A DNA stretch of 64,000 nucleotides from Trypanosoma brucei (GCA_000002445.1 CP000070.1:1568001-1632000), one strand, 5' to 3'. Numbered from the stretch's first letter, positions 40,116 through 62,586 are shown. The notes: generated from the letters alone by a model not told the origin. Numbers and translations: made by a program.

Positions 40116-40118
<3 letters not shown>

Positions 40119-40146: not shown

Positions 40147-40150
<4 letters not shown>

Positions 40151-40812
40151 ACTCATGTGTACCTATTTTACACTATAATGAAAAATGCAACGGTGTGACA
40201 TATATCACACATAGCCAACAAAACATTTTCGGCACATATAACCTCTTTAAAGAGAATAAAACATTTAAAAATAAGTACACGAAGACTATATGCGGGGACC
40301 CTACGGCGCACCAGCGTAACTACAGTATTGACAATATATTATCAACTGCCACTCTTCACCCGCGGAAACACCATGTAATCCTTTTCTTCTTGCGGTGGGA
40401 GAGAGGAGAGTGCAGAACAACACAGGCACCCCAACACCGTTGATCCGTAGTGCTACCTATCTCGTCTTCATATCTTTACTGCTTGTTATAATTTTGTCTT
40501 TTTTACCTTTTTTTTTCGGCTGCGCTGTCACGGTTTTATAAATGTCCATTGCAAAATAGTTGCTCTCAAGACACACATCAATAGCATTATATCCGCCCAA
40601 TACCTCTTCTTTCATTCTCCCAAAACTTAATGCTTTCATTTCTCCCTTTTTGACTTATTGAACCTTTGAACAATACCACAGACTAACAGCAATAAACAAG
40701 CACACAGTCACGTAAAGGAACCTAACATTTTAGGGAAACAAAAATTATCTGGCAGCACACTGGGTGAAACATCGGGAGGAATACAACTGAGCGTACTGTA
40801 CAAAACATTGCC

Positions 40813-42609: not shown

Positions 42610-43036
42610 GTATGGAAGTTACTCGATTTTAAGCTGTGAGGTAATTTTAAAAAAACGTGTTTATTTGTTATTTTTTTTTGCGTGTACAAAACGCCTTTAG
42701 TGTCTTGTGGTAATATCTTGTATCTCTTAATTATGCTAATATACTAAAAACCGTATTTCTTGTTCTTACCCACTGCGGGAAGTGGACACTTGGATTAACA
42801 GTATCATAAGACAGAACTCTCTTTTTGATCCATGGTAAACTTCCCGCTACATTCTCTCATTTTCTCCGGGTGTGTTTGTAGGGTTTTTTTATAATTCTAT
42901 CCTCTATTTTTTTTTTATTCGATACTGACTTTACCTTTTGTTAACAAAAATTGGTTTGTTTATTCCCTGCTTTTTTTTCGTTTCTAATGTTGTCGTAATA
43001 TTTTATTTACAATTATTTCTTAATCTAATATATTTA

Positions 43037-43996
43037 TTTTTGCATATGGGTTTACCCAGCGTGAGATGTCCAGCAGCAGGCAGGCACATACACACGCAGC
43101 AAATAGTGGTTTCACTGCTGTTTATCTTCTGTTGGGTTTAAAAAACTCGCAATCTGAGCACCTTTCTGTTCGAGGGCTGACGATATTACTCCCCCGCTTC
43201 GGAGCTAAGGTTTCTTTGGCAGGGTGTCTTTCGCCCGCCCTCCTAAATTGTGTTGTCTTTTTGGGAAAACGGCAATAACTTTCAGATACCTTTATTACTT
43301 ATTTGTTTGTGACCCTCCCCGCCTCGTTGTGTGCGCAGGTGGGATGCCACCACTCGTCACTTCCGACTTAACTCCTCTGCATAATACAGAAAAAGCTATT
43401 GATCTTTCCTTACATTTTCTCGTGTTGGAAGGTTTGTTGCGCGGTTGGTCAAGCATACATATATACGGATGGACGATGGTAAGGGAACAAATACCCGGTG
43501 ACCTTTCATTATACTCAGTATATAAAGAATGTTTTCTTATGGCCAACTAGCTATCAGCTGATGGGAACCATTCCAGTTTGTATAGTTGTGCGAACAATAA
43601 ATAGATGCTACAGTAGTAGTCTTCAACATAACTATGGCATATTTAGTAACACATCATAGCTACGTAAGGCAGTGTGAAACTTTAAATACTTGGAGGCCAA
43701 TTGGAGGTTGTAACAAGGAACAACATCGCCTATGATATGTGTACCTCCACAAATGACGGTAAATACCTACTTAAAAGGCTGTTCTGTGGAATCATCGGAC
43801 CAAACATCGAGATGGAGTTATTCACTAAACACAGAAAAAAGCGATCATCTTACCTTTATACACATGACACTGGTAGCTACTCCCATTATTACTTCTTTTC
43901 ATTTGCAACCTACGTTATTATCCCCTCACATCCTCAAAGCTTTCAAATACATAAGGTAAACACATTTATAAGAGCAACCACCATCACCACAGCACA
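43037..43996 (+). repeat. type-B intergenic element, copy 3
   Basis: Same block, offset +9466. Confidence 0.8.
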
Positions 43997-44049
43997 CTGG
44001 GCGAAACATCAGGAGGAATACAACTGAGCGTACTGTACAAAACATTGTC

Positions 44050-45807: not shown

Positions 45808-47024
45808 GCTGCCGATGTCAGTTTGGCCTTTGGTAAGTAAATTATGTGCTTTGCTTTGATTTATAACATTCATAAGGTTTGTAAAAGTGCTGGTCAGCTA
45901 AATTTTCTTTACACCAATTTTACATTGTGAGCCCTTCCCTTAATATTTTTCCTTCACAATTCCATCCCATCATTTTCGTTGTTTTGTGTTAACATCTGCC
46001 TGTGACTCATCAGGTAAATACTGATCTTTTCCCCTTTTGGTTAACTTTTATTATTATTATTTTTTAATGTGTTCGTCCGGATTTGTGGTCTTATGATAAT
46101 GCGTACGACAATATAAGCCGCTGATATGAGTGAGGGAACGTTATGCAGCGTACTCGGTAGACTCCAAGTACTGTAATTTACTTCCCTTTCAAGTGGTTCG
46201 TACGAATAATTTGTGTCACGGCATCTTATTCATTTTTGTTTTCAGATATTAATAATTCCACGAGTATCTTTCTGCCGCTCTGTAATGTTCTTTTGTTTTC
46301 TCTTAATAAGCTGTTGGTTGTCATTTTCGTTTACGTACCTAAATATATATATATATATGTATACTCATGTGTACCTATTTTACACTATAATGAAAAATGC
46401 AACGGTGTGACATATATCACACATAGCCAACAAAACATTTTCGGCACATATAACCTCTTTAAAGAGAATAAAACATTTAAAAATAAATACACGAAGACTA
46501 TATGCGGGGACCCTACGGCGCACCAGCGTAACTACAGTATTGACAATATATTATCAACTGCCACTCTTCACCCGTGGAAACACCATGTAATCCTTTTCTT
46601 CTTGCGGTGGGAGAGAGGAGAGTGCAGAACAACACAGGCACCCCAACACCGTTGATCCGTAGTGCTACCTATCTCGTCTTCATATCTTTACTGCTTGTTA
46701 TAATTTTGTCTTTTTCACCTTTTTTTTTCGGCTGCGCTGTCACGGTTTTATAAATGTCCATTGCAAAATAGTTGCTCTCAAGACACACATCAATAGCATT
46801 ATATCCGCCCAATACCTCTTCTTTCATTCTCCCAAAACTTAATGCTTTCATTTCTCCCTTTTCGACTTATTGAACCTTTGAACAATACCACAGACTAACA
46901 GCAATAAACAAGCACGCAGTCACGTAAAGGAACCTAACATTTTAGGGAAACAAAAATTATCTGGCAGCACACTGGGTGAAACATCGGGAGGAATACAACT
47001 GAGCGTACTGTACAAAACATTGCC

Positions 47025-48821
47025 ATGAGCGCACCCGTCGACAACGTCGTGGTGGAGCGGCTCTCTACAGCCAACCAAAAACCGGTCAGTGAGCCCCGCC
47101 GTTTCGCCACTTTGGTTCTCGGCGTCTTTTGTTGTATGTGCACATCCTTCATGTATGCCTTCAATCTTATATCTGGAGCAATGCAGGAACGTTACGACCT
47201 CACACAGCGAGATCTCTCCACCATCACTACTGTTGGTATTGTAGTTGGATATTTCTTGCTGCCTTATGGTTTCATCTATGACTATCTGGGGCCGAGACCT
47301 GTATTTGTAATATCAATGACAGTTTTCTGCCTGGGTACGTTGCTTCTCGCACTGACATTCCAAGAAGTGATTGAAGGATCTGTTGTGAGACTCAGTGTCT
47401 ACAATGGTCTCATGGTATTGGGATGTATGTTGTTTGACTTGGGTGCCGTGGTAACAGTACTCAGCGTGTTTCCATCCAACCGTGGTGCCGTGATGGCCAT
47501 CATGAAGACATTTACGGGTCTTGGTTCCGCAATCGTCGGTTGTATACGACTAGGTTTCTTGAGTCAGAGTACCTCTGCTTATTTCTACTTCCTCATGTCG
47601 TTTGCCCTGGCCGCTGGCATCTTGGCTATTGCATTTCTGCGTCTGCCACCATTCCATTTGACGGGCTATCAGGAAAAGCACCTTGATGAAGAAGAGAAGG
47701 CACAGCTTCGCGTAACGAAGGGCGTGTACCTGAAGCAGAAGGCACCCATGTGGCGTTTCGTCTACGGTTTTGCTATTCTTTTGATTCTCATTGTGTTCCT
47801 CCCCCTGCAGGGATCACTGTCCGCCTATCTCAAACTCGGAAGCAACTTCAGGGTGGGGTTTGCACTCGTTGTTATCGCGTTGATCGTAATATTCCCTTTT
47901 ATGGCATTCCCACTTACTACCTTCGACGGCAAACGCCCACATGACGATTCTGACAGCAAAGCCAAAGAACACGTTGGAGCAGGTGATGAAGTTTCCGCGG
48001 CGGAAGATAAGGTAGTTGAGACTGATGTCGACTATATTGCTCCACAGTTCCAGGAAACATTTATCGCAGGATTGAAAACCGCACGGTTATGGTGCCTACT
48101 GTGGTCAGTTTTCTGTTGCGTTGGTGTGCACTATGTTGTCATCTACAATGCTCGTTTCATCTACACGGCACTGACCGGTGAGGCCCCTGAAGACGCGCTA
48201 AACACCCTCCTTACTGTTCTAAATGGTGTGGGTAGTGCTGTAGGACGACTTTGTATGAGTTACTTCGAAATCTGGTCGCAGAAGCGCCGTGCTGAAGATC
48301 GCGTCCCCATCACCATTGCGCTGTTTATCCCTTCGGTTTGTATCATCACCATGTTGACACTCTTCCTCACTCTCCCGAAGGCTGCATTACCTTTACCATA
48401 CTTCATCGCAGCGTTCTCAAATGGTTTCACAGCGGCGATTATTGCATTGGTAACGCGCACAATATTCGCCAAGGATCCTGCAAAGCATTACAACTTCTGC
48501 TATCTCGCCTCCGTGCTTTCAGCCATCTTCCTTAATCGTCTACTGTACGGTGAGTGGTACACGCAACAGGCCGATAAGTTGGGTCAGGATGTTTGCAAGA
48601 AGCGTGTTTGTGTGGTGATGCCGCTTGCATTTATGTTAGGTCTCGCCTTCCCAGCATTTGCTACTAGCACCTACTTGCATCTGCAGTACCGCCGCCTTTG
48701 CACGCTTGCGCTTGAGGAACGTCAGCGCATCCGGGAGGAGGAGCGTGTGCTAAATGAGTTGCCTTCTAACCCTATAGAGCCGACGGGGAATGCCGGTGAA
48801 CCTGCGCATCAACTCAAGTGA
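47025..48821 (+). CDS. PAD8: PAD-family MFS transporter, array copy 8
   Basis: 598 aa. A mosaic: copy-4/6-like loop and C-tail, copy-1-like segments (…FTAAIIALVTRTIFAKDPAKHYNFCYLASVLSAIF, AFPAFATSTYLHLQYRRLC). Confidence 0.65.
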   Translation: MSAPVDNVVVERLSTANQKPVSEPRRFATLVLGVFCCMCTSFMYAFNLISGAMQERYDLTQRDLSTITTVGIVVGYFLLPYGFIYDYLGPRPVFVISMTVFCLGTLLLALTFQEVIEGSVVRLSVYNGLMVLGCMLFDLGAVVTVLSVFPSNRGAVMAIMKTFTGLGSAIVGCIRLGFLSQSTSAYFYFLMSFALAAGILAIAFLRLPPFHLTGYQEKHLDEEEKAQLRVTKGVYLKQKAPMWRFVYGFAILLILIVFLPLQGSLSAYLKLGSNFRVGFALVVIALIVIFPFMAFPLTTFDGKRPHDDSDSKAKEHVGAGDEVSAAEDKVVETDVDYIAPQFQETFIAGLKTARLWCLLWSVFCCVGVHYVVIYNARFIYTALTGEAPEDALNTLLTVLNGVGSAVGRLCMSYFEIWSQKRRAEDRVPITIALFIPSVCIITMLTLFLTLPKAALPLPYFIAAFSNGFTAAIIALVTRTIFAKDPAKHYNFCYLASVLSAIFLNRLLYGEWYTQQADKLGQDVCKKRVCVVMPLAFMLGLAFPAFATSTYLHLQYRRLCTLALEERQRIREEERVLNELPSNPIEPTGNAGEPAHQLK

Positions 48822-49187
48822 GTATGGAAGTTACTCGATTTTAAGCTGTGAGGTAATTTAAAAAAACGTGTTTATTTGTTATTTTTTTTTTTTGCGTGTA
48901 CAAAACGCCTTTAGTGTCTTGTGGTAATATCTTGTATCTCTTAATTATGCTAATATACTAAAAACCGTATTTCTTGTTCTTACCCACTGCGGGAAGTGGA
49001 CACTTGGATTAACAGTATCATAAGACAGAACTCTCTTTTTGATCCATGGTAAACTTCCCGCTACATTCTCTCATTTTCTCCGGGTGTGTATGTAGGGATT
49101 TTTTTATAATTTTATTCCCTATTTTTTTTTCTTACCTTTGGTGGCAAAGTGAGCGTCAAATTATTTATTCAACCGTGTTTTAATGTA

Positions 49188-49592
49188 TTTTTGCATATGG
49201 GTTTACCCAGCGTGAGATGTCCAGCAGCAGGCAGGCACATACACACGCAGCAAATAGTGGTTTCACTGCTGTTTATCTTCTGTTGGGTTTAAAAAACTCG
49301 CAATCTGAGCACCTTTCTGTTCGAGGGCTGACGATATTACTCCCCTGCTTCGGAGCTAAGGTTTCTTTGGCAGGTTGTCTTTCGCCCGCCCTCCTAAATT
49401 GTGTTGTCTTTTTGGGAAAACGGCAATAACTTTCAGATACCTTTATTACTTATTTGTGTGTGACCCTCCCTGCCTCGTTGTGTGCGCAGGTGGGATGCCA
49501 CCACTCGTCACTTCCGACTTAACTCCTCTGCATAATACAGAAAAAGCTATTGATCTTTCCTTACATTTTCTCGTGTTGGAAGGTTTGTTGTT
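49188..49592 (+). repeat. type-B intergenic element, truncated terminal copy
   Basis: Matches the first ~400 bp of the element, then diverges at ~49593 (…ggaaggtttgttg|ttcatgcg…). Marks the end of the array. Confidence 0.75.
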
Positions 49593-50589
49593 CATGCGTT
49601 CTTTTTTGCCGCTGAGCGATGGTTGCTTTAGCAAAGCCTTTGTGGACCAAAACGTAGTTTCCAAAAAGTAATGGATCGATGCTGATTTGGGTTGTCTGCT
49701 CTTATGTTATGTTGTTGCGTGTAAGGTCCATGTTGAGGAGGCCTGAGGCTTACTGAGAAACACTTTTTGAGCTTAAATCACTTCAAATGTGGCGGCGTTG
49801 ACTGCAGTGTACGGTGGTGTTCTGTTTTAAGACAAGGCAATTGAGAAGGAATGATGAAATATCTTCGAAAGACCCAAACTCTCGCGTGGGGCACGCATGG
49901 AGAAACGCATTATTATTACTTTTTTTTTGACCTGACACAGCATATTGTACAACCCCTTTCCACACCCCTACTGAGGAACAACACCATGCGATTGCCCAGC
50001 ACCGCCTCATGTTTATTTCCCGCTCATCAGATCCGCCCTCAACACTGAAGGATTTTGAAGTTAAGGTAGGCGGCAGGTGAATGGTTGACAGCAGGATGTT
50101 CCTGGCACCACTCTTCCTTTCTGGTGTATGCTTTACAACATCTCCTTGTCGGAACAAGTCCGGCAGCCACGCACTTTTAAGTTAAGGTGGCACATCAGCG
50201 AGTCACCCGTACACTCACCAATTTTGATCCGTTATTCCACAGAAGGATGTTAACCTTGATCGTGGCAAGCTTCGAAAACAACCCCTTTTCTATCCATAAT
50301 CGTATGTAGGTGTTGTCGTCATGCAACTCGGCTGACCCTCTCTTTCCGACTCGGAACCAAAGAAAAGAACACCCATCTTCTGTAAAAATACATTTGTCTC
50401 CGCGCCCGAAAATTAACTACTACCACTTTTTCCATGTGAGGGAGAAAAGTTACCACTCACTACATTGTTACAGTTACTCAGTAAAATCACAAGAATCAAA
50501 GTACAACAAAATAAACCCACATAATAAAAAATATTAGAATTACGCTTCCAATATTACCGCCACTCGCCCCCTCTCACTCATGTCGTTAT

Positions 50590-52771
50590 GGCGTGTTACA
50601 TTTTTGTTAGGGTATGTTGTGTCGTTTTATTTATTTAGTGGTTTTGTGGGTGACGGCAAAGTGGCGTGTGTACGGTAATATATAGGAGTGACGGTGAGTG
50701 TTTTTGACTTTTGCTTACACTTTATGAACTATTCTATCCGTTGCTATGCATAGTTGCGCGTGTTTTTGTTTAGCAAGCGAATTTTCGGGACAAGTTGCTT
50801 TACTTCACGTTGGGTGGATGTGGCTAGTGCGTGAATATCGCTCACTGTGAGTTCTCTGTGCCCTGTGCGCGTCACGTGCACCACCTGCGCCTGATACAGC
50901 CCCTGCGGGTTACCAAGTTTTCCTTATTTCTTACTCTATTCTTCTGCTCTTCTTTTCGCTTCGTGACGCGGCCCACTGACGTTGTAATTCTTCTGACTAC
51001 TTGCTGTGGGAAAGAAAGGGGACAGGTGCCTAAGGGACCAGCTGGCAACGAAACCGTCTTGATCTTTGCCAAAATCTCCGCAGCAGCATGTGTGCTATAC
51101 TGAGGGCTCAGCCCTTCACCACGCTCTAAACCTGAGGCGGTGGGGTAGCACCCCCCGCAGGTTCTCCCTTTTGGCCTTCGTCTGGCGGTGTTTCCCTACG
51201 CAGTCATTTTATATTTCTGCCCCTTTCGAAAGTCCCACGCAAGCCTCACCACTTTGACCAGGGAACCGGTTTCCGTGTGTCCCCACCCTTTTCATCCCCC
51301 TCACAAAAGACCCTTTGATTCCAACAGCAAATCTCTTGTTCGAACTCAACGGCAGCCATGGGCCCACCTCCAAACCGACCTTACGAAAGCAGGTCGCGCC
51401 TAAGGCATCTTCTCCCCGCACAGCGGTGGGCCACAGAGACGGCCCATGTCTCACTACCTGCCGCTTGGAAAGCAATGACGTCCAGTATTTCCCGATGTTT
51501 CAGAGCGCCTCGAAGAGATGCCCTTAGCTTCAAATCCTTCTGGAGTAGAGGGCAGGGGACACAAATGTCGTCGTCGGTCCTTGACCCGCGAGCCTCGGGC
51601 GATCGCTTGGTTGTATTTTTTAGCGTTTGCGCGGCCAATTCGCAGTCGTTCCGCTCTCGCTGCCCCCTTGCGCTCCGGCTTTGTTATCTTTTCAACTTTT
51701 CTTTCCCCACGAAAATAATGGGCGAACCCGGGCACGCGCTGATGTTATTGCGCGTTCCTCTATATTTCGATTCCGTTTTCGGATTGCATCCATACTTATT
51801 CGGTGAGTTTTACCATGCCGCAACACCGGAGGGGAGGGGCTCTTACTCCGAGCGTATCACTGGATTGTTAACTCTCCTCGTCCCAAATTCGGGGGCGGGG
51901 GTGCTGTGAATGCCTCGCGGGGCGTCAGTACGTTTGGTTCATCCCTTTCTAGCTTCTGACCTTATTCTCGTAATCTCACCGTCTGCGCTCGCTACTACTC
52001 TTGCTGGGGGAGCGCTCTGGAGCCGTCTGCGGTGTTTGGGGATTCCATTGTAGAACTGCGAAAGGATAATTTACCCCATTTCGGTGCATTGCGTCTTTGG
52101 TGCCGGTCCAACGCCACCGAAAAGACTTCTCCCCCGCACGCTCGTACTAATCCGGCCTCGATGCCGGTGTGTTCTTCGCGCACCCTCCTCGTGGCACCCG
52201 CCCAAACATCCACGGTTCAAGCCAAGTGTGCCTGTCGGAGGTCGCTTCCTTCGCCCGAAATTTGATCCTCTATCTCATCTCCTCCCCCCCTCTCAATATC
52301 GCGGTGGGAAAACATAGATTACCTCGAAATTGCCACACTTCTTTTGACACGTGAGCACCACCCTCTATATACAACCTAAAAGCCCATCCTCCGTTCTAGT
52401 TCGGCCCGCCATATGGGAAAGCGATGGTGGCATGAGCCCTAAATACCCCTACCTTCTTCTACGACAAGGGGCTTGTCCTCTATTTCCCGTAGCGTACTCA
52501 ACTCCATTTCTGTCGGCACCGCCCCTACGCGATGGACACAAGCTATTATTCCGGCGCTCACTTGCTTCTATATTTTTCCGTATTTTCGAAGATTATCATT
52601 TCTGCGCCAGAGAAGGTGCGTGACCCCACATGGCCATCTCTCCAAACCTGGTAATCTGATTTCCTTACTTCCACCTTTTTCAATACGTGAGACTTCTTCC
52701 TTTTGTCTAGCGCATTCCCCTTGGACCTTTTCAGGGAAGGGACATTTATGTGCACACCAGTGGTCGATGCC
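50590..52771 (+). repeat. left arm of large near-perfect inverted repeat (~2.18 kb)
   Basis: The six-frame track gives identical ORF translations on opposite strands at mirror coordinates (x + x' = 108340), e.g. 50831-51103(+) = 57237-57509(–), 51358-51909(+) = 56431-56982(–), 52351-52623(+) = 55717-55989(–). The nucleotide match was read directly at both boundaries. It starts at …gtgttacatttttgttagggtatg… (50593). The inner end is at …ccagtggtcgatgcc (52771). Confidence 0.9.
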
Positions 52772-55568
52772 CATGGCATAACCTCTATGGGGTGCAACCA
52801 AATTGTTTAATTGGAGCACCATCCTTCCGTTGAATTTGTCCAAACGAGCATTTGGTGGCCGCAGGTATGGCTTGGGGCTCGCACACCCGCAAAGTTCTCC
52901 CCTTTGGCATTTGGGGTCGGGCAGTGCTCCACCAAACTTGCGGCTAGCAGTTGCCCAACAGCCCCAGGTTTCGCGTTTTTTGAACGCCCCTTTTCCAGTT
53001 ACAGTCAGTGGGGCTCCGGCGACTGTGTCGCCTCCGGCGGTTCTCATTTGCCATTTCAAACGGGGAAATGAAAAGCACACAACCCGAAATATTTGAGGCA
53101 CAAAAGGGCACCCAGCCTCGACGAAACTCGTCAATTGGCTGGCCCTAGAGCTTCCCCCACAGTAGCCCGTACAGCAACTATGCGCACCGCAGCTGGGCCA
53201 GAACACATGGCAGGACAGATCGATAACACCAGTTCAGTTGGATGGTCTCGCCAACAGCTATTACGGAGAGGAATAAAACACCGAGTTCACAACCTTAGCC
53301 ACCCACTGGGAAAAAGGATGGGGAATGAACAATGATAAGTCAGAATTTTATATCACAGGCATGACGGCAGGAAAACTTCCAATGAACAACCAACAAATGG
53401 TCGGCTACCAGAGGCGAATGAAGATTCAAGTCAACAAACTTATGACCGAAAAGCAAATGACACGGATGGACGCAGCGGCGCAAGGTAATACCAACACGTT
53501 CGAACCATTTGCGCGTGAACGTCGTAGAGCAACGGCACACGTAGAGCAATACCCGAACATCGGTCATTCCCCCTCCGGGGATGATGCCACTACGCCAAAG
53601 GATGTTATACCAATGTTGCTAATAAAGAAACAGCTTCGTGAATTCGGAAGGGGACGGTTAAGGATGCCATTCACCGACACGTTGTCCGCTAATGTGGAGA
53701 AATTTACGACCCCCGTTGGGCAGACACAAGTGACAGGCCAGCCGGAGATATTAGTAACAGAGAAAAAGTTGTCCGCAGAAGGAATATGAGCAGGAATACT
53801 TTGGCTTCCTCTTTTATATGGCCTGAGAATAGTATATGAACTAAATCCTTATCACATTCAGGTCTAATTCGGATACGTATAATAAACAATTGATGAGGCA
53901 AAGGGATGGCATCACCGCCCACTAACGACAAAATTTGCATGAACCACGTAGTTGAACGATTCAGACACGTTCCAACGCGCCATCACAAGGAAGAGCACAA
54001 ATTTCAATGACACAGGTCAGTAATCTTGGACAGAACTAACCCAGGTGATCGCTGCACGTGCGGATGCCGGGAAAACGGTAGGTCTCCAACGGTTACGGAA
54101 AGAAGTGCTAGACGCAGCCAGGTTGATGCAACAAACTTCCAGCCGCGGTCTCCGGTATGCAAAGAACAAAACCAAGAGGAAGACCCACGCAAAGAGCCCT
54201 GGAAAGAATGACGCCAACAGGCGTGCACGCATATCAACAGTCGGTACGATGGAACTGAAAAGCCGGTAAAAAATAAGACCTCACCCCCTTCCCCAAGTTA
54301 CAAAAGGATATCCAACCCACAAGAAAGTCCTTGCCAGAAAGGCCTCAACCCACTGCCAGGGTGGCTGGGAGACATCGAAAAACGCCGGACGCTGCGATTA
54401 AGGTAGAACAAAAATAAATGAAAAAGTTCCTTGCACCCCGGAACTCAAAAAAGGGAGGCTGGCCTCAGCTTCCGCAGCTGAGACTGAAACTACCTGTTCA
54501 TTGGGATTCTGGCGGGCAACACCCGCTTTGAGTGCTACAGATTTGCGGGATACGGGCGTTGACCACTCTTTCTCCCAAAACCACAGTTGAAACACCCCTT
54601 CGGATGGCATAAGAGGGTATTGGGGACAGCGGTCGTACAGTTTCGTTTGTAAGCGGAATGTGAGACGTCGCTTTATTCTTTTCCACGTGTTGTTGTTTAG
54701 TTCGGTTTCATAATCTCGCGAACTGTCCCTCTACGGGAAGGCTGCTTCGCCCCGTATTAGTTTGATCATGTGTACGATTTTTTGCCAATTAGTGCCCAGG
54801 ATTGGCGGCCGCTCAGGCGCTTTGGACCAAAGATGCTACGGCTTCTCGGCCGTTACTTCTCGTAGAGTCCTTCCGTTGGTTTCCAATTTCATCCATAGTT
54901 TCATCCGCGACTCCCCCGGACGTTTTGGCACCCCTCCCTCTCTGGGCTCTAGGTGGTTCCACAAAAAAGCGTATGGGGTCCGAACGTCCACTTCTCTATG
55001 CGTGGTGCCGAGTTGTTTCCCCCCCTCAGGTAGCAAACGCATCACCAACTCTGTTGGTATATGATGGTTAAAGGCGATGCCGGCGTTTTAATTTCACACA
55101 CTTGTGGTGATTCTGTTTTCCCAAACCGGAACCACCCCTTGGGTCCTCAATTATTGCACGAATCTGCATTGTTTCAGGGGTTCGACGTAACCCATCGGGG
55201 TCTTGTGAAGACATTCCGTTTTCCTTCTTTGCCGCAAAAACCAAAGTTGACCTGCGGCTTTTCGTTAAGTTCCAAACGGAAATGAAGTGAATTGACGCCC
55301 CCCCCCCCTCCTATCGCATATCGCTTCCAAAATGTTAGCGGAAGATTCTTGACATAGTGGGGACTATAACAGTAGACGTAGTTTCGATCATCCAGTTTGT
55401 CGTTCATTGCCTGTGGCCGCAGGGTCATGCGCTTTCTTGTTTTACGTCTTTAAGCACGCTCATTGCAAGAGCCCGCAAATGCCTTGATAGCGGGTTGGCC
55501 AACCGAATGAATAATACCAGCTGTTTGGGGTTGTTGGGCGTCATCCTCCCACAACAAAAATTGGGAGT

Positions 55569-57750
55569 GGCATCGACCACTGGTGTGCACATAAATGTCC
55601 CTTCCCTGAAAAGGTCCAAGGGGAATGCGCTAGACAAAAGGAAGAAGTCTCACGTATTGAAAAAGGTGGAAGTAAGGAAATCAGATTACCAGGTTTGGAG
55701 AGATGGCCATGTGGGGTCACGCACCTTCTCTGGCGCAGAAATGATAATCTTCGAAAATACGGAAAAATATAGAAGCAAGTGAGCGCCGGAATAATAGCTT
55801 GTGTCCATCGCGTAGGGGCGGTGCCGACAGAAATGGAGTTGAGTACGCTACGGGAAATAGAGGACAAGCCCCTTGTCGTAGAAGAAGGTAGGGGTATTTA
55901 GGGCTCATGCCACCATCGCTTTCCCATATGGCGGGCCGAACTAGAACGGAGGATGGGCTTTTAGGTTGTATATAGAGGGTGGTGCTCACGTGTCAAAAGA
56001 AGTGTGGCAATTTCGAGGTAATCTATGTTTTCCCACCGCGATATTGAGAGGGGGGGAGGAGATGAGATAGAGGATCAAATTTCGGGCGAAGGAAGCGACC
56101 TCCGACAGGCACACTTGGCTTGAACCGTGGATGTTTGGGCGGGTGCCACGAGGAGGGTGCGCGAAGAACACACCGGCATCGAGGCCGGATTAGTACGAGC
56201 GTGCGGGGGAGAAGTCTTTTCGGTGGCGTTGGACCGGCACCAAAGACGCAATGCACCGAAATGGGGTAAATTATCCTTTCGCAGTTCTACAATGGAATCC
56301 CCAAACACCGCAGACGGCTCCAGAGCGCTCCCCCAGCAAGAGTAGTAGCGAGCGCAGACGGTGAGATTACGAGAATAAGGTCAGAAGCTAGAAAGGGATG
56401 AACCAAACGTACTGACGCCCCGCGAGGCATTCACAGCACCCCCGCCCCCGAATTTGGGACGAGGAGAGTTAACAATCCAGTGATACGCTCGGAGTAAGAG
56501 CCCCTCCCCTCCGGTGTTGCGGCATGGTAAAACTCACCGAATAAGTATGGATGCAATCCGAAAACGGAATCGAAATATAGAGGAACGCGCAATAACATCA
56601 GCGCGTGCCCGGGTTCGCCCATTATTTTCGTGGGGAAAGAAAAGTTGAAAAGATAACAAAGCCGGAGCGCAAGGGGGCAGCGAGAGCGGAACGACTGCGA
56701 ATTGGCCGCGCAAACGCTAAAAAATACAACCAAGCGATCGCCCGAGGCTCGCGGGTCAAGGACCGACGACGACATTTGTGTCCCCTGCCCTCTACTCCAG
56801 AAGGATTTGAAGCTAAGGGCATCTCTTCGAGGCGCTCTGAAACATCGGGAAATACTGGACGTCATTGCTTTCCAAGCGGCAGGTAGTGAGACATGGGCCG
56901 TCTCTGTGGCCCACCGCTGTGCGGGGAGAAGATGCCTTAGGCGCGACCTGCTTTCGTAAGGTCGGTTTGGAGGTGGGCCCATGGCTGCCGTTGAGTTCGA
57001 ACAAGAGATTTGCTGTTGGAATCAAAGGGTCTTTTGTGAGGGGGATGAAAAGGGTGGGGACACACGGAAACCGGTTCCCTGGTCAAAGTGGTGAGGCTTG
57101 CGTGGGACTTTCGAAAGGGGCAGAAATATAAAATGACTGCGTAGGGAAACACCGCCAGACGAAGGCCAAAAGGGAGAACCTGCGGGGGGTGCTACCCCAC
57201 CGCCTCAGGTTTAGAGCGTGGTGAAGGGCTGAGCCCTCAGTATAGCACACATGCTGCTGCGGAGATTTTGGCAAAGATCAAGACGGTTTCGTTGCCAGCT
57301 GGTCCCTTAGGCACCTGTCCCCTTTCTTTCCCACAGCAAGTAGTCAGAAGAATTACAACGTCAGTGGGCCGCGTCACGAAGCGAAAAGAAGAGCAGAAGA
57401 ATAGAGTAAGAAATAAGGAAAACTTGGTAACCCGCAGGGGCTGTATCAGGCGCAGGTGGTGCACGTGACGCGCACAGGGCACAGAGAACTCACAGTGAGC
57501 GATATTCACGCACTAGCCACATCCACCCAACGTGAAGTAAAGCAACTTGTCCCGAAAATTCGCTTGCTAAACAAAAACACGCGCAACTATGCATAGCAAC
57601 GGATAGAATAGTTCATAAAGTGTAAGCAAAAGTCAAAAACACTCACCGTCACTCCTATATATTACCGTACACACGCCACTTTGCCGTCACCCACAAAACC
57701 ACTAAATAAATAAAACGACACAACATACCCTAACAAAAATGTAACACATC
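55569..57750 (-). repeat. right arm of inverted repeat (reverse complement of 50590-52771)
   Basis: As above. The unique 2.8-kb spacer 52772-55568 lies between the arms. Confidence 0.9.
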
Positions 57751-58782
57751 ATATAAAAATTAAAAATGTATGATAATATTATACTTCTTCGCTGCAGGCA
57801 TTACTCAAAAAAGCTTCAGTAAACATCACGACCCATCACACTTTCACCGCTTTCGCTGCCCTCAGTATACTGCTCTCATCCACCACATATTCACCTAGAG
57901 GCCCTCACACGGTGACCGTTGGCCCCGCTATCTAAACCGATTTGTGTGCCATATCCCTCATTCCTAGTGCCTTCACCATTGGTGTCTACATTACTGGTGT
58001 TGTCAATCCCGTTAGATTCGTCTCCGCCTGTACCCACAGCCGTTGTCCCCCGATCGGTACTCAGCAACGGACTGCAAGCACTGAGGTTAGCAGAAACATC
58101 AAATACAATCTACCCACAATTACTATCCAACATATGACTGGCTTCACATCAGTGAAAACAGTGACAAACTATGATATCACATTGGGCGACTAACAGAATC
58201 AGAGGGTGAAAACGAAATGAAGAAATCAATCGAAACATGGAAGTTAACACCTAAGCAGAGGAACTTAGAGCCTACAATAAACAGAGAATCCCACAACACA
58301 CACCCCAACAAACAGGCAAAACAGTAATGGGGCACACGGAAAAGAAACGAAGCAACCTGCACGATATTAGGTGACAACAATCCAATAAGCCAACAGTGCT
58401 TCGGATCGTATACTGCCCACCCACACATACAAACACTCCTGGACTAACGAGAGGGAAAGGTAAGTGACCGGGAGCTGTTTGCCGGACATGCAAAGATAGT
58501 TTAAAAGACGCAGGTAAGTGGCATCGGCTTACAACAAGAGGGTAGCAGTATATCAATGATGAAAGAAAATATTAAGCAAAGTTCACGCGGACGCTCGTGT
58601 TAACTATCAATGCGTGAAACGCAACACGAAAATGAAAGCAAGCTACGCTGAGGTAACAATAATCTACATGGACATCAAAGAAAAAACATAAGTGTAAGAT
58701 GGCACGCACCCGCACATGCATTGTAAGAAGTAACATCTTCCAAGTACATTGCCGCGAGCTGCCTCAGCAACATCAGGAGAGG

Positions 58783-61700
58783 CTAGAGGTCACCCTTCAG
58801 CACCGTAGCCTCTACTGTGCTCCGCCGTGACAGGGCCTCAGACGCATCGGAGCTTGCTACAATACCAACCGACGCCAAATCACCGTTATCGCCAGGGTAA
58901 TTGGACCTTGATAGCAAAGGCGAACGCAAAACTTCAATACCAAGCAACGAAGGTTGGACCCCACCCATTAAAATAGTCGAAGAATTTAGGGAGTTATGTC
59001 CCACACGAAAGTCCGCCACGCGCCCAACCCTTACCGCTATACGGCAAACCACTTCCCGGCAGTAGGCCTCAGACCATCCGCTGTTCTTGCGCAACAATGA
59101 CACACGCCACCGTTCGCACAGAGGTAACAGCAGATTCTGCCGCTGGGCTGGTGCGAACACACCGAGCAGCGAATTCAGGGATATGGCAACCTGCCTGGCA
59201 GAATCAGTTAACCCAGCATGTAGAGAACTCACCTCACTCAACGAGGGGTCCGCAACCTCATCGTCCAATCCAGGGCCATCGCGGTCCAGCCTCAGTGCAG
59301 CAAAAGTGCGACCGGGAATTGGGTTCAGCTGGTACATCTCCACAGGATTGGGAACACCGCGTAACGTTACAGGGCCCAGTGCAGTTACATCAAACTGCTC
59401 ACGCTCTACCACACTCAGCGACATGTAGGTCGCACGTGTCATCAGCACTTGCCCGCCGTTCGCAACACTCTCTGTCCTTGCTGCCATATTCGCTGTCCGT
59501 CCATAGTAGTCATATCCCTTCGTCACCTCATCGTACCGGATGTCGCACAGTCCAGTGTGGATCCCAACACGCACACGCAGGCCACGCCATAGTCGGCCGT
59601 ACACCTCACGGTCCAGATGTGCCGTCGGCGGAGTGTACCCTTCCTCTTCCTCGGCGCGCTGCAGTTCAAACTCACGGTATGACTCATCCAACGCAGCTGT
59701 CCCCCAATTGTGGTGCAAAAAGTTATGCTGCAAGTCACAAGCTAGACGCACAGCCGCAGAGGGGCTCCGGCACGCAATCATGAAGGAGTCCCCGACAGTC
59801 TTCACCTCGTAGCACCTGTAGTGCATAATCAACGCACGAATTAGCCGATGATGTGTCGCTACAGCGTCCGGCATCATCTCTGGGTGCGCCGCCCACTGTG
59901 CAGTACTGCTTTCGATATCTGTGAAGATGAGCGTCACGGGATCCGTTGGTTCCTTCGGTGCATTTGCGTTATCACGCGCATCCGCAAAATACCGACACAA
60001 TACGACAACGATCACCACTACTAGAAGCAAAAAAAACAAAACGGCGCCCACACAAACACCAATCAACCGTGCCCCCGTCAGTCTCCCAGCGTCACGGTCC
60101 TCATACTGCAGCAGTTGAGAGATTGGTTCGGCAATCGGTGGGACCGACGGATCCAGTGCACGTGCCATTGACCACACAGCAATACCTGTCGCACCGTAGT
60201 TTGTTAAACAGTCATTCCACAGACCCACCTCCACCTTGCCGCATCCCTCTGTGCCATACGGGCCGTAGCGCATGTCATCAGCTCGCAAATAAGTCTCCGA
60301 AAAAAAGAGATTCGACAGGGTATCTGCGTCCACCTTCTTTAATTGCGGGAGAACCGTCCGCAGCAAGTTTCCGGCAGCAAACCCCATTAACGACAGTGGT
60401 GTCCACTTCGACTTATCCTTCATAGCATTGTGAAACTTTTTCACAGTATCCGACGACGGGTTCCCATCAGCCCAGTGTGGAAGGTTTGTCGCGAACAGCA
60501 AACGGTTACTACTCGAGCTTCCAGGACCCTTATCCCTAAACACACGGACAAACGTCTGGTAGTATAATGCCACCTCAGTAAAAGGGACGTAAACGAATAG
60601 CTTGGGGTTGGCGCTGAGGTGCTTCGCAATCACCTCGACGTCGTCCTGTTTGAGGCCTATGACAAACACGTCACCCTCGCGGGGAAGATAGCCTGTGACA
60701 GAGACTGTCCCATTCAGCATTACCAAAGACTGAGGTTCCTGATAAAACCGACTCAGCGACATATTAACCACCTTTTCAATTCTATTTGATTCGGAGCTGC
60801 TGATGACAGAGTGCACCCCTATTGAGCCCTTCTCTCCCAAATACTTGGCGATCACAAACAGTTGCTGCTCCAGTGTGGCAGAGAGGTATATCACACGTTT
60901 GTTAGGTGTTCGGAGGCGAGGAACAAGAAGCACCGGATCAACAACAACGAAGGTCGATGTGCTCAGTAACGCTTCATCCGTAACGCCCATGACAACGGTC
61001 ACAAGCTTTTCCTCCTCCTCACGTTTTAAACGCTTCCAAATGGTGCCTGAGCTTGTGTTGATCCTGTGCAAGAAGAATCTATCGTAATCTCCGAGATCCC
61101 CAGTGCCCACAAGGAGACTCGCACCTCCATGCCACTCCTCGGCCGCGTTCAGTGACAATTGACTGTTATCCATAAACGTGGCAACAGCTGCCAGCGGGGC
61201 ATGAAGCCGGGACCCGTCCGTATCGCATCGAGATGTTCCCAACGCCATGAAACCACTCTTTACACTCTCCAGCCGAAAGCCCTCCACGAGCCTTTTCATG
61301 TATACTGCCTTACCACCCTGGTTACATTGACACGAAGCACCTAGTGCAGCGACATTATCGGGGCAATCACCACCATAATCTCCATACACAAGATCATCAA
61401 TTACGTAACGCCGTTGATTGTACAGAGACTTTTTGAACGTTGAACGGTTCTTCAGCCACTCACGGGAGCTCAGCGCCCGCGACAGCATTTCACCGATAAT
61501 CCACCCATACACCATCAGCTCACCATCATCATCATCCGTCAGATGACGATCAGACCTACCATAAAGTGATGCTCCGGAATGAGAAGCAAGGTACGCTTTC
61601 ATCTCCTTCTGAAAACGTTGGATCGCTTGATACTCATTATCCTTGGCGAGTGGGTTCGTTCCCGTGGTGATCACTTCCCCATGAGAATATCCACCACCCC

Positions 61701-62586
61701 GACCATATGTAGCATTTAAGGTTTCGACAACAAAATACTGTAGCGCAAAGGGAGAAAGTATACACGCACCAGATGTACGCTTGTCCTCTAGAAATTTCAG
61801 TAGAGCCTTTTTACCGTCATCTACGGGATACACGTACAGTATAACAGCCTGCGGATTCGTTGCCGCAAACTGATCCCACTCCCTTTGAAAACCTTCGCTG
61901 CTTGCAGATGCTTCCGTCGAGCTTTTCAGAGCGAATGTGCCACAAAGCCCATAGCCCATCCTAGCCATCGCCTGAACCACAAGTTGGTACTCAGTGTCAC
62001 CGAAAAATACGCCTTTTAAATACATAAATCCCAGACACCGTACACGCAGATGGGCAAGGGCATAACGCAGGAGGGCTAATGTCTCAGCGAGTGGATCCAC
62101 CGAGATAAAGTACAAGTTGGGCCGCCACCCTCTAACCGCACCAGAGCCTGTGTACGGAGCGAAACCGATAACCTCATTTTTCGTCAGTAAATCGAGTGAT
62201 TCCAAAACAGTTTTGTCACCAAGGGGTCCCAACACAACAAGAATCTTCTTCAGGTCACTGAATTCTTTTAATTTTTGTTCTAATGCTTCATTGACATTTT
62301 GCTCGGAAGTGGCAGGCGCAGAGAAACTAACAGTCACTCCCGGCTCGGTTATATTCTCACGGGCGTGAAATGAAGCAAGCACACCAGTATTAAGAGCCTT
62401 TACGGTGCCGTTGGATACAACACTTTTATGTAGAAGCGAAAATACCTCCACATTTATTTCTTCTTCAGCATTATCGCACAATACCATGGGTGCTTGCATA
62501 ACCTGCAGTATCACCGCAAGCAGAAACAGTTGCGCCACAGTGCCACACGGGACGCCACGAGGTCCCCAAACTGCTCTGTGAGGCAT
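58783..62586 (-). CDS. GRESAG4: receptor-type adenylate cyclase (GRESAG4/ESAG4-like)
   Basis: 1267 aa. N-terminal signal peptide. Large periplasmic-binding-protein-like ectodomain. Single TM helix IGVCVGAVLFFLLLVVVIVVVL. Class III cyclase catalytic domain with the trypanosome AC signature …LIFTDIESSTAQWAAHPEMMPDAVATHHRLIRALIMHYRCYEVKTVGDSFMIA…GLRVRVGIHTG…. Confidence 0.85.
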   Translation of the reverse strand: MPHRAVWGPRGVPCGTVAQLFLLAVILQVMQAPMVLCDNAEEEINVEVFSLLHKSVVSNGTVKALNTGVLASFHARENITEPGVTVSFSAPATSEQNVNEALEQKLKEFSDLKKILVVLGPLGDKTVLESLDLLTKNEVIGFAPYTGSGAVRGWRPNLYFISVDPLAETLALLRYALAHLRVRCLGFMYLKGVFFGDTEYQLVVQAMARMGYGLCGTFALKSSTEASASSEGFQREWDQFAATNPQAVILYVYPVDDGKKALLKFLEDKRTSGACILSPFALQYFVVETLNATYGRGGGYSHGEVITTGTNPLAKDNEYQAIQRFQKEMKAYLASHSGASLYGRSDRHLTDDDDGELMVYGWIIGEMLSRALSSREWLKNRSTFKKSLYNQRRYVIDDLVYGDYGGDCPDNVAALGASCQCNQGGKAVYMKRLVEGFRLESVKSGFMALGTSRCDTDGSRLHAPLAAVATFMDNSQLSLNAAEEWHGGASLLVGTGDLGDYDRFFLHRINTSSGTIWKRLKREEEEKLVTVVMGVTDEALLSTSTFVVVDPVLLVPRLRTPNKRVIYLSATLEQQLFVIAKYLGEKGSIGVHSVISSSESNRIEKVVNMSLSRFYQEPQSLVMLNGTVSVTGYLPREGDVFVIGLKQDDVEVIAKHLSANPKLFVYVPFTEVALYYQTFVRVFRDKGPGSSSSNRLLFATNLPHWADGNPSSDTVKKFHNAMKDKSKWTPLSLMGFAAGNLLRTVLPQLKKVDADTLSNLFFSETYLRADDMRYGPYGTEGCGKVEVGLWNDCLTNYGATGIAVWSMARALDPSVPPIAEPISQLLQYEDRDAGRLTGARLIGVCVGAVLFFLLLVVVIVVVLCRYFADARDNANAPKEPTDPVTLIFTDIESSTAQWAAHPEMMPDAVATHHRLIRALIMHYRCYEVKTVGDSFMIACRSPSAAVRLACDLQHNFLHHNWGTAALDESYREFELQRAEEEEGYTPPTAHLDREVYGRLWRGLRVRVGIHTGLCDIRYDEVTKGYDYYGRTANMAARTESVANGGQVLMTRATYMSLSVVEREQFDVTALGPVTLRGVPNPVEMYQLNPIPGRTFAALRLDRDGPGLDDEVADPSLSEVSSLHAGLTDSARQVAISLNSLLGVFAPAQRQNLLLPLCERWRVSLLRKNSGWSEAYCREVVCRIAVRVGRVADFRVGHNSLNSSTILMGGVQPSLLGIEVLRSPLLSRSNYPGDNGDLASVGIVASSDASEALSRRSTVEATVLKGDL

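What the first reader, a model, noticed from the sequence alone, without database searches (positions are those of the whole stretch)
50590..57750. 7.2-kb near-perfect inverted repeat (2.18-kb arms, 2.8-kb unique core) at the convergent strand-switch region
The two arms are identical enough for every ORF in one arm to be reproduced residue-for-residue on the opposite strand at mirror coordinates. This points to a very recent duplication/inversion or ongoing homogenisation. The structure contains no ATG ORF with a recognisable domain: the longest is 183 aa, GC-rich and of odd composition. It sits exactly where + strand (PAD array) and – strand (adenylate cyclase) Pol II transcription converge. 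Read-through from either side would give a long perfect hairpin or dsRNA. In T. brucei, inverted repeats and convergent transcription units are known sources of endogenous siRNAs. Convergent SSRs are also termination zones. The element could therefore be an siRNA-generating locus, a termination/recombination module, a pair of degenerate retroposon fragments, or a foldback-type mobile element with an unknown cargo in the 2.8-kb core (ORF 53325-53789, 154 aa, no known motif). I could not match arm or core to ingi/RIME, rDNA, snRNA or tRNA by eye.
Basis: partly seen in the sequence, partly recalled or inferred. Interest (0 to 1): 0.85.

Follow-up and report, generated by a model that had tools for sequence, protein, structure and literature searches.

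The report
Self-homogenising palindrome at trypanosome transcription end-zone
This is a real 7.2-kb non-coding palindrome where two gene arrays of Trypanosoma brucei chromosome 7 converge; its arms are kept identical by gene conversion, and it belongs to an already described class of small-RNA-producing inverted repeats, so it is a well-behaved example and not a new kind of element.

Summary
**Observation.** It is confirmed. The arms are 50587-52771 and 55569-57753 (2185 nt). They differ at 2 adjacent bases at the outer tip, and 2179 nt are perfect. The spacer is 2797 nt.

**Location.** The window is T. b. brucei TREU927 chromosome 7. The element fills the convergent strand-switch between PAD8 (Tb927.7.6000) and a GRESAG4 adenylate cyclase.

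**Coding.** Its annotated ORFs (Tb927.7.6010, 6020, 6030) are not real genes. They have no homologues or domains. The core ORF has a premature stop in two other strains.

**Evolution.** The palindrome sits at the same site, with the same outer ends, in T. b. gambiense DAL972 and two T. equiperdum assemblies.
- All 15 substitutions separating TREU927 from DAL972 are present in both arms of each genome. This shows concerted evolution by gene conversion and rules out a recent duplication.
- The spacer has the opposite orientation in DAL972 and IVM-t1.

**Published data.** RBP33 binds the arm RNAs. They rise 2.3-3.3-fold when base J is lost. By inferred coordinates, the region is Tschudi's small-RNA locus CTU26.

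**Best reading.** It is an unlisted member of the known T. brucei class of long inverted repeats. Read-through transcripts fold back into dsRNA and are diced.

**Rejected.** Mobile element, retroposon, cargo gene and assembly artefact.

**Score.** Interest is modest.

The parts
50587..52771 (.). Left arm of the palindrome (perfect from 50593). 52% G+C; pyrimidine-rich on the + strand.
55569..57753 (.). Right arm, the reverse complement of the left arm (perfect to 57747).
52772..55568 (.). Unique 2797-nt spacer (core). It has no internal self-complementarity above chance. It lies in the opposite orientation relative to the flanks in DAL972 and IVM-t1.
52772..52801 (.). About 30 nt at the left arm/spacer junction, specific to TREU927 and OVI. 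In DAL972 and IVM-t1 this position holds a second copy of the 35 nt listed next, so their arms are about 2220 nt long (boundary shift).
55534..55568 (.). 35 nt that are spacer in TREU927 but part of both arms in DAL972 and IVM-t1.
51358..51909 (+). Annotated ORF Tb927.7.6010 (183 aa), in the left arm. Judged non-coding. RNA is RBP33-bound and base-J-repressed.
56431..56982 (-). Annotated ORF Tb927.7.6030 (183 aa), the mirror copy in the right arm.
53325..53789 (+). Annotated ORF Tb927.7.6020 (154 aa), in the spacer. Q35* in DAL972 and IVM-t1; matches only itself in 5.8 billion proteins.
47025..48821 (+). PAD8 (Tb927.7.6000), the last gene of the + strand polycistron.
48822..50586 (+). Unique flank between the PAD8 stop codon and the left arm (42% G+C).
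57754..58782 (-). Flank between the right arm and the adenylate-cyclase stop codon. 57768-58783 is repeated after every cyclase gene of the array, so this array-wide repeat ends 15 nt from the arm.
58783..62586 (-). Receptor-type adenylate cyclase GRESAG4 (AAZ12668), the last gene of the - strand polycistron.

Best explanation
The element is a non-coding palindromic module filling the RNA polymerase II termination zone between the PAD array and the GRESAG4 adenylate-cyclase array on T. brucei chromosome 7.

DNA level (shown):
- The two 2.2-kb arms are kept identical within each genome by arm-to-arm gene conversion.
- Between lineages they drift at the ordinary neutral rate.
- Crossing-over between the arms has inverted the 2.8-kb spacer in some lineages.

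RNA level (inferred from published data on this locus and on its class):
- Polymerases that escape base-J/H3.V-dependent termination from either side transcribe arm, spacer and arm.
- The transcript folds back into a roughly 2.2-kb perfect duplex.
- The Dicer-like enzymes cut it into 22-25-nt AGO1-bound siRNAs.
- RBP33 and the exosome clear the remaining transcript.

The module therefore acts as a sink that turns read-through RNA into small RNAs, so no stable antisense RNA against the PAD or cyclase genes builds up. Whether this sink is selected or is only a tolerated by-product remains open.
For: Structure.

Identity and context: TREU927 chromosome 7, between PAD8 and GRESAG4.

Non-coding:
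- No Pfam hit for 10 ORFs or for all six frames.
- No Rfam family, tRNA or tandem repeat.
- The ORFs match only themselves or their Trypanozoon orthologues.
- Nonsense and mostly non-synonymous changes between strains.

Ancient and real: same site and same outer boundary in DAL972 (L004), IVM-t1 (L008, gapless) and OVI (L006).

Gene conversion:
- 15/15 substitutions between TREU927 and DAL972 are shared by both arms within each genome.
- Arm-to-arm identity is 99.7-100%, against 99.2% between lineages.
- Arm divergence (0.74-0.78%) is similar to flanks (0.6-1.1%) and spacer (1.1-1.3%).

Spacer inversion: window 50593-57753 aligns in reverse over 7.18 kb to IVM-t1 while both flanks align forward. 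DAL972 shows the same.

RNA, from the literature:
- All seven catalogued long inverted repeats and all convergent units give AGO1-bound small RNAs (PMC3447711).
- CTU26 (chr 7, 1,616,700-1,627,500) has 1,609 reads split 838/771 between strands. After recomputed normalisation, 47.5% remain in dcl2-/-. That is within the range of Tschudi's catalogued inverted repeats. The median for convergent units is about 9%.
- Tb927.7.6010, 6030 and 6020 RNAs are enriched in RBP33 IP (log2 4.0, 3.7, 2.4) with very low input and no protein detected.
- Tb427.07.6010 and 6030 rise 3.3- and 2.3-fold on base-J depletion, with J and H3.V within 10 kb.
- cSSR RNAs are degraded by the exosome (PMC9757043).
Against: - The link to CTU26 rests on inferred coordinates. 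These come from gene-order reasoning, the DAL972 position at 1.676 Mb, and a window start of 1,568,001 that would make the PAD8 and cyclase stops fall at 1,616,821 and 1,626,783. I could not read TREU927 coordinates directly.
- No small-RNA reads were mapped here, so hairpin versus intermolecular dsRNA is not distinguished.
- CTU26 read numbers are middling (rank 22 of 48), far below IR3 (372,045 reads).
- H3.V knockout alone did not raise the arm RNAs (0.5-0.6x).
- This cSSR is absent from Reynolds' cSSR small-RNA table.
- Spacer orientation in assemblies with 2.2-kb identical arms can be mis-set. DAL972 has gaps and a mis-scaffolded contig at this locus.
- Orientation tracks the arm haplotype, so a single old inversion explains the data as well as frequent flipping.
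Confidence: 0.7

Rival explanations
1. Selected fail-safe terminator or insulator. The palindrome is maintained by selection because hairpin-derived siRNAs, or the DNA/RNA hairpin itself, actively enforce termination or chromatin silencing at this strand-switch. This would protect the PAD differentiation genes and the cyclase genes from antisense transcription.
For: - Long inverted repeats recur at convergent strand-switches. Tschudi's IR3, IR5 and IR7 coordinates fall inside cSSR rows of Reynolds' table, and this element is a fourth case.
- The palindrome has persisted across T. brucei subspecies with unchanged outer boundaries.
- Tschudi et al. themselves proposed selective pressure on hairpin formation.
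Against: - Between-lineage divergence of the arms (0.74-0.78%) is about the same as in flanks and spacer, so there is no primary-sequence constraint.
- Gene conversion alone explains the identity.
- mRNA levels at two other convergent units did not change in dcl2-/- cells.
- T. theileri and T. grayi have PAD-like arrays without this strand-switch.
Confidence: 0.2
2. Very recent inverted duplication that has simply not had time to diverge.
For: Near-100% identity of the arms.
Against: The same palindrome, with the same outer ends, is present in T. b. gambiense and two T. equiperdum assemblies. The 15 substitutions that separate lineages are each present in both arms.
Confidence: 0.02
3. Assembly artefact (false inverted join or collapsed repeat).
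For: Perfect repeats longer than Sanger reads are error-prone. The DAL972 assembly is visibly wrong next door.
Against: Four independent assemblies carry it, including a gapless IVM-t1 chromosome. Lister 427 annotation has both Tb427.07.6010 and 6030.
Confidence: 0.01
4. Foldback-type DNA transposon, or a pair of degenerate retroposon (ingi/RIME/DIRE/SIDER) fragments, possibly with cargo in the spacer.
For: Long terminal inverted repeats surround a unique core. Retroposons are the main siRNA source in T. brucei.
Against: - No target-site duplication.
- No other copy in the window.
- Arm ORF proteins are recorded only from this locus in TREU927 and IVM-t1.
- Identical insertion boundaries in all genomes.
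- No reverse transcriptase, endonuclease or transposase signal in six frames.
- The cargo ORF is broken in two strains.
Confidence: 0.03
5. Tb927.7.6010, 6020 and 6030 are genuine lineage-specific protein-coding genes, duplicated in the arms.
For: They are annotated in TREU927, OVI and IVM-t1. The 183-aa ORF is intact in all arms except one DAL972 copy.
Against: - No domain and no homologue in 1.8 to 5.8 billion proteins.
- 3 of 4 substitutions in 6010 are non-synonymous.
- 6020 carries a stop at codon 35 in two strains.
- Protein 'not detected', and RNA at about 1 RPKM.
Confidence: 0.02

Closest known systems
Long inverted repeats IR1-IR7 of T. brucei TREU927 (Tschudi et al. 2012, BMC Genomics 13:427)
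   Same: - Kilobase-scale arms at 99-100% identity on a megabase chromosome, with a unique spacer of a few kb.
- Source of AGO1-bound small RNAs with mixed DCL1/DCL2 dependence.
- Several of them (IR3, IR5, IR7) also lie in convergent strand-switch regions.
   Different: - This one is not in their Table 3. IR3 (3,636-bp arms, 1.125 Mb) and IR4 (2,520-bp arms, 1.889 Mb) differ in size and place, and the IR3 probes are absent from the window.
- It seems to have been counted as convergent unit CTU26.
- Its read count there (1,609) is far below IR3 and IR4.
Convergent transcription units / cSSR termination zones of T. brucei (H3.V, H4.V, base J; siRNAs; RBP33-exosome surveillance)
   Same: - Lies between two converging polycistrons.
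- J and H3.V are reported within 10 kb.
- RNA is up on J loss and is bound by RBP33.
   Different: Most cSSRs need overlapping transcription from both sides to make dsRNA. Here a single read-through transcript from either side is self-complementary over 2.2 kb.
Hairpin-RNA (hpRNA) endo-siRNA loci of Drosophila and mouse oocytes
   Same: A long genomic inverted repeat is transcribed into a fold-back duplex that Dicer cuts into endogenous siRNAs.
   Different: Those loci have defined trans targets. No other sequence in the window matches arm or spacer, and no dedicated promoter is known here.
Large palindromes homogenised by arm-to-arm gene conversion (primate Y-chromosome palindromes; plastid inverted repeats with flip-flop isomers)
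   Same: - Arms are more alike within a genome than between lineages.
- The spacer is found in both orientations.
- The arm/spacer boundary shifts by tens of nt.
   Different: Those arms carry dosage-relevant genes. These arms carry none. The scale is also much smaller than the Y palindromes.
Foldback (FB) transposons
   Same: Long terminal inverted repeats around a unique middle.
   Different: Single fixed locus, no target-site duplication, no transposase, and no internal subrepeats in the arms.

Membership tests
T. brucei long inverted repeats producing siRNAs (Tschudi IR class) | Two arms of at least 0.4 kb in inverted orientation, at least 99% identical, on a megabase chromosome | tested here: met
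   2185-nt arms with 2 mismatches, on TREU927 chr 7
T. brucei long inverted repeats producing siRNAs (Tschudi IR class) | Genuine in the organism, not an assembly artefact | tested here: met
   Present in DAL972, IVM-t1 (gapless) and OVI. Both arm ORFs are annotated in Lister 427.
T. brucei long inverted repeats producing siRNAs (Tschudi IR class) | AGO1-bound 22-25-nt small RNAs map to the arms (and spacer) | not testable with these tools
   No read data are available here. Published CTU26 counts (1,609 reads, both strands) probably cover this locus, but the coordinate link is inferred.
T. brucei long inverted repeats producing siRNAs (Tschudi IR class) | Listed as one of IR1-IR7 | tested here: not met
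   Coordinates and arm lengths differ from IR3 and IR4. IR3 probe oligos are absent even with 3 mismatches allowed.
Convergent strand-switch / Pol II termination zone | Flanked by the last genes of two converging polycistrons, with no coding gene between them | tested here: met
   PAD8 (+) ends at 48821 and the cyclase (-) ends at 58783. The intervening ORFs are non-coding.
Convergent strand-switch / Pol II termination zone | Base J, H3.V and H4.V enrichment, and read-through on their loss | not testable with these tools
   Literature only. J and H3.V are flagged within 10 kb of Tb427.07.6010 and 6030, which rise 3.3- and 2.3-fold with DMOG.
Foldback / TIR DNA transposon | Target-site duplication at the two outer ends | tested here: not met
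   Junctions are ...catgtcgt|TATGGCG and CATCATA|taaaaatt, with no direct repeat.
Foldback / TIR DNA transposon | Multiple copies or polymorphic insertion sites | tested here: not met
   No other copy in the window. Arm ORF proteins are recorded only from this locus. The boundaries are the same in four genomes.
Foldback / TIR DNA transposon | Transposase or conserved cargo gene | tested here: not met
   Six-frame Pfam scan is empty. The spacer ORF is broken in two strains.
Trypanosomatid retroposons (ingi, RIME, SLACS, DIRE, SIDER) | Reverse transcriptase or endonuclease coding remnants | tested here: not met
   No Pfam family at E<=0.1 in any frame of arm plus spacer
Trypanosomatid retroposons (ingi, RIME, SLACS, DIRE, SIDER) | Nucleotide similarity to the element consensus (e.g. 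the shared 5' signature) | not testable with these tools
Palindromes maintained by arm-to-arm gene conversion | Lineage-specific substitutions present in both arms (concerted evolution) | tested here: met
   15 of 15 substitution sites show TREU927 L=R and DAL972 L=R.
Palindromes maintained by arm-to-arm gene conversion | Spacer found in both orientations | tested here: met
   TREU927 and OVI have one orientation, DAL972 and IVM-t1 the other. The caveat is assembly ambiguity across 2.2-kb identical arms.

The most novel reading that the evidence does not exclude
Long, self-homogenising palindromes are a recurrent and selected architecture of T. brucei convergent strand-switch regions. This element plus IR3, IR5 and IR7 gives at least 4 of 8 known long inverted repeats at such sites. 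On this reading they work as RNAi-coupled fail-safe terminators. Any read-through from either polycistron is made self-complementary and destroyed, and the spacer flips between two isomers in living populations. Arm identity might even be helped by the hairpin or RNAi machinery, as Tschudi et al. speculated.
Probability: 0.12. Interest if true: 0.65.

Novelty: new member of a known kind. Interest (0 to 1): 0.3.

Why it matters
How RNA polymerase II stops at the ends of trypanosome polycistrons is still unclear, and so is the origin of the dsRNA that gives siRNAs at convergent regions.

This locus is a simple, single-copy case in which one read-through transcript is enough to make dsRNA. It sits next to the PAD genes that control parasite differentiation.

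The comparison across subspecies adds two facts that I did not find in the literature searched. The arms evolve in concert, and the spacer exists in both orientations. Together with the overlap of IR3, IR5 and IR7 with convergent regions, this suggests that palindromes at termination zones are a pattern and not an accident.

If that pattern holds, deleting one arm would be a direct test of whether hairpin-derived siRNAs matter for termination. It would not open a new field.

Tried and rejected
- **Known RNAs and repeats.** Rfam at E<=1 over 49-59 kb gave only a chance miRNA-like hit outside the element. tRNA and tandem-repeat scans gave nothing.
- **IR3 identity.** Tschudi's IR3 probe oligos are absent from the window, so this is not IR3.
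- **T. equiperdum 183-aa gene in the PAD array (L002).** It has the same length as the arm ORF, but it is only a frameshifted PAD fragment.
- **'Third copy' of the outer 907 nt of the arm, downstream of another cyclase gene in DAL972.** This is an artefact. 26 of 46 differences lie in the last 200 nt beside a 100-N gap, and the rest match the DAL972 arm haplotype. It is the true right-arm end, mis-scaffolded.
- **Spacer as a decayed inner palindrome,** suggested by the AT-skew flip near 54.5 kb. Local alignment of the spacer to its reverse complement scores below shuffled controls. The small central hairpin patch has z = -1.3.
- **Similarity to the rest of the window.** None for arm or spacer.
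- **Deeper conservation.** The T. theileri and T. grayi PAD-like arrays sit in same-strand context with no strand switch within 10 kb. An apparent 1.2-kb palindrome in the T. theileri locus is an N-gap.
- **Direct TREU927 coordinates.** Exact-protein look-ups for TREU927 genes returned nothing. Literature searches for coordinates of PAD genes found none.
- **Not used.** The bacterial promoter/terminator scan and the phage, plasmid and E. coli collections are irrelevant to a trypanosome.
Full report
**1.

The window contains exactly one inverted repeat of 100 nt or more. Its arms are 50587-52771 and 55569-57753 (2185 nt), separated by 2797 nt. A base-by-base comparison finds two adjacent mismatches at the extreme outer end (50591-50592 versus 57748-57749). 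The perfect stretch is therefore 2179 nt, 50593-52771 / 55569-57747. All arm ORFs are mirrored. A match of this length cannot arise by chance.

**2. Where it is**

The + strand ORF at 47025-48821 is 100% identical to a T. b. brucei TREU927 protein on a 2,205,233-bp contig, chromosome 7. Exact look-ups give the annotation:
- PAD8 is Tb927.7.6000.
- The 183-aa arm ORFs are Tb927.7.6010 (51358-51909, +) and, by accession order (AAZ12667) and the Tb427.07.6030 label in Lister 427, Tb927.7.6030 (56431-56982, -).
- The 154-aa spacer ORF is Tb927.7.6020.
- The - strand gene at 58783-62586 is a GRESAG4 receptor-type adenylate cyclase (AAZ12668).

**3. It is non-coding and matches no described family**

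- Rfam at E<=1, tRNA and tandem-repeat scans are empty.
- Ten ORFs, and then all six full reading frames of arm plus spacer, have no Pfam match.
- The 154-aa ORF matches only itself among 5.8 billion proteins.
- The 183-aa ORF matches only its T. equiperdum orthologue among 1.8 billion representatives.
- Between strains, Tb927.7.6020 has a stop at codon 35 in DAL972 and IVM-t1, and its other changes are all non-synonymous. Tb927.7.6010 has 3 non-synonymous changes out of 4.
- Arm and spacer match nothing else in the window.
- The outer junctions show no target-site duplication.

These results remove the cargo-gene, foldback-transposon and retroposon-fragment readings. One test could not be run: a nucleotide comparison with a kinetoplastid repeat library.

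**4. It is old, and the arms evolve in concert**

Orthologous loci were fetched from three assemblies:
- T. b. gambiense DAL972 (L001, L004);
- T. b. equiperdum IVM-t1 (L005, L007, L008; no gaps across the region);
- T. equiperdum OVI (L006).

All three carry the palindrome at the same place, and the outer boundaries that are assembled match TREU927 (the DAL972 right-arm tip lies in a gap; the OVI contig covers only the left one). Arm-to-arm identity is 99.7% in DAL972 and 99.8-99.9% in IVM-t1.

In a six-way alignment of arms, 15 sites carry substitutions between TREU927 and DAL972. At all 15, both TREU927 arms share one state and both DAL972 arms share the other. The only within-genome differences are small indels, most of them in the gapped DAL972 copy.

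Divergence between TREU927 and the DAL972/IVM-t1 type is as follows:

| Segment | Divergence |
|---|---|
| Arms | 0.74-0.78% |
| PAD-side flank | 1.0-1.1% |
| Spacer | 1.1-1.3% |
| Cyclase-side flank | 0.6% |

The arms are therefore not conserved in sequence. They are homogenised. This is arm-to-arm gene conversion, and it rules out a recent duplication.

The inner boundary also moves. In DAL972 and IVM-t1 the arms are about 35 nt longer, because the sequence at window 55534-55568 is present at both spacer ends. TREU927 and OVI have a different 30 nt at 52772-52801.

**5. The spacer occurs in both orientations**

In IVM-t1 both flanks align forward to the window, but window 50593-57753 aligns as one reverse block of 7.18 kb. 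DAL972 shows the same. The OVI contig has the TREU927 orientation and is 99.92% identical to it. Orientation tracks the arm haplotype, so one ancient crossover between the arms is enough to explain it. Frequent flip-flop is possible but not shown.

Two caveats apply. Assemblers cannot orient a spacer between 2.2-kb identical arms without spanning data. DAL972 is also demonstrably mis-scaffolded next door. The TREU927 and gapless IVM-t1 assemblies are the better witnesses, and they disagree with each other. That disagreement is the evidence for two isomers.

**6. What the published experiments say about this locus**

*Small RNAs.* Tschudi et al. 2012 found seven long inverted repeats in TREU927, all essentially identical in their arms and all sources of AGO1-bound small RNAs. 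They also found small RNAs at every convergent unit. This element is not among the seven. IR3 and IR4 on chromosome 7 differ from it in arm length and position, and the IR3 probes are absent from the window.

Their convergent unit CTU26 spans chr 7 1,616,700-1,627,500 (10.8 kb). It fits this strand-switch, which measures 9.96 kb from the PAD8 stop to the cyclase stop. Three lines of evidence support the link:
- The DAL972 copy lies at 1.676 Mb.
- Tb427.07.6500-6520 lie at about 1.78 Mb in Reynolds et al., which puts gene 6010 near 1.62 Mb.
- If the window starts at 1,568,001 (49 x 32,000 + 1), the two stop codons fall at 1,616,821 and 1,626,783.

The link is an inference, not a reading of coordinates.

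CTU26 has 1,609 reads in wild type, 838 on the top strand and 771 on the bottom. The dcl2-/- normalised column of that supplementary table is ten-fold too small in every row but the first. After recomputation, CTU26 keeps 47.5% of its small RNAs in dcl2-/- and 80% in dcl1-/-. The median for convergent units with at least 500 reads is about 9% in dcl2-/-. Tschudi's IR2, IR3 and IR5 keep 24-49%. CTU26 therefore resembles those inverted repeats, and differs from ordinary convergent units.

*RBP33.* In RBP33 RIP-seq, RNAs of Tb927.7.6010, 6030 and 6020 are enriched (log2 fold change 4.0, 3.7 and 2.4). Input counts are very low and no protein was detected. RBP33 targets cSSR transcripts for exosome decay.

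*Base J.* In Lister 427, Tb427.07.6010 rises from 1.18 to 3.92 RPKM on J depletion (P = 0.0046) and Tb427.07.6030 rises from 1.34 to 3.14 RPKM (P = 0.037). Both are flagged as within 10 kb of J and H3.V. H3.V knockout alone does not raise them.

**7. Mechanism**

Shown here: the structure, its non-coding nature, its age, the concerted evolution of the arms, and the two spacer orientations.

Inferred from the literature:
- Polymerases that escape J-dependent termination from either polycistron run through one arm, the spacer and the other arm.
- The RNA is self-complementary over about 2.2 kb and folds back.
- It is then diced by DCL2 and DCL1, and the products load onto AGO1.
- Transcripts that are not diced are bound by RBP33 and degraded.

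Unlike an ordinary convergent region, this one does not need transcripts from both sides to meet. Whether the palindrome is selected as a fail-safe or is merely tolerated is open. The neutral-looking divergence of the arms argues against constraint on sequence, but it says nothing about constraint on symmetry.

**8. Comparison with what is known, and novelty**

The element works like the Tschudi inverted repeats and like animal hairpin-RNA endo-siRNA loci. Its DNA dynamics are those of Y-chromosome palindromes and plastid inverted repeats.

It passes the structural tests for the Tschudi class but is absent from their list. I therefore file it as a new, previously unlisted member of a known kind.

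Two small additions seem new relative to the papers I could search. One is the direct evidence for gene conversion and spacer inversion. The other is that IR3, IR5 and IR7 also fall inside convergent strand-switch rows of Reynolds' table, which makes palindromes at termination zones a recurrent pattern.

Interest is modest at 0.3. A trypanosome specialist would not be surprised, but the locus is a simple test-bed.

Noticed in passing
window 49183-49590; also 33569-33972, 36808-37215, 43032-43439: A block of about 408 nt recurs in the PAD intergenic regions. It is 98.5-99.8% identical across copies and strains. The PAD coding paralogues are only 80-91% identical. This looks like a homogenised or constrained regulatory/UTR element of the PAD array.
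   Followed up: no
L003 13805-15744 and L004 2371-2470, 12015-12114 (T. b. gambiense DAL972, FN554970.1): The DAL972 assembly is mis-scaffolded in the cyclase array. A contig end carrying the true right-arm tip is placed after a different cyclase gene. The cyclase next to the palindrome is truncated to 622 aa by a 100-N gap.
   Followed up: yes
Literature: PMC3447711, Additional file 3: The dcl2-/- normalised read column is ten-fold too small in every row except CTU1. After recomputation, several convergent units (CTU2, 24, 35, 43, 9, 26) keep 47-159% of their small RNAs without DCL2. This weakens the statement that all units depend critically on DCL2.
   Followed up: partly
Literature: PMC3447711 Table 3 versus PMC4721609 S2 Table: Tschudi's IR3 (chr 7, 1.125-1.135 Mb), IR5 (chr 8, 1.048-1.060 Mb) and IR7 (chr 11, 4.219-4.231 Mb) coincide with convergent strand-switch rows in Reynolds' table. 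Long inverted repeats at termination zones are therefore recurrent. The PAD/cyclase strand-switch itself has no row in that table, although its arm ORFs are in their S1 table.
   Followed up: partly
window 50587-57753 versus 36380-47024: The whole element is as G+C-rich as coding sequence (arms 52%, spacer 50%). The PAD intergenic regions are 37-38% and the immediate flanks 42-44%. Possible causes are GC-biased gene conversion or an ancient coding origin. This is unexplained.
   Followed up: no
window 52772-55568: AT skew flips inside the spacer near 54.5 kb: A-rich on the + strand to the left, T-rich to the right. The whole element is therefore compositionally mirror-symmetric, although the spacer halves share no detectable sequence.
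   Followed up: partly
L002 12758-14183 (T. b. equiperdum IVM-t1): One PAD gene of the IVM-t1 array is split into 252-aa and 183-aa fragments. This is either a frameshift or a sequencing error. The 183-aa length matches the arm ORF by coincidence only.
   Followed up: yes
Protein hits P0145, P0147: Two full-length trypanosome-type receptor adenylate cyclases (46-47% identical to the window's gene) are deposited as Schistosoma mansoni proteins on 17-20 kb contigs. They look like contamination or mislabelling.
   Followed up: no
L014, L015 (T. theileri, T. grayi): PAD-like arrays in these species lie within same-strand gene runs (M17 peptidase, WD40 protein) with no strand switch within 10 kb. 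The PAD/cyclase convergent junction therefore appears specific to the T. brucei lineage.
   Followed up: partly
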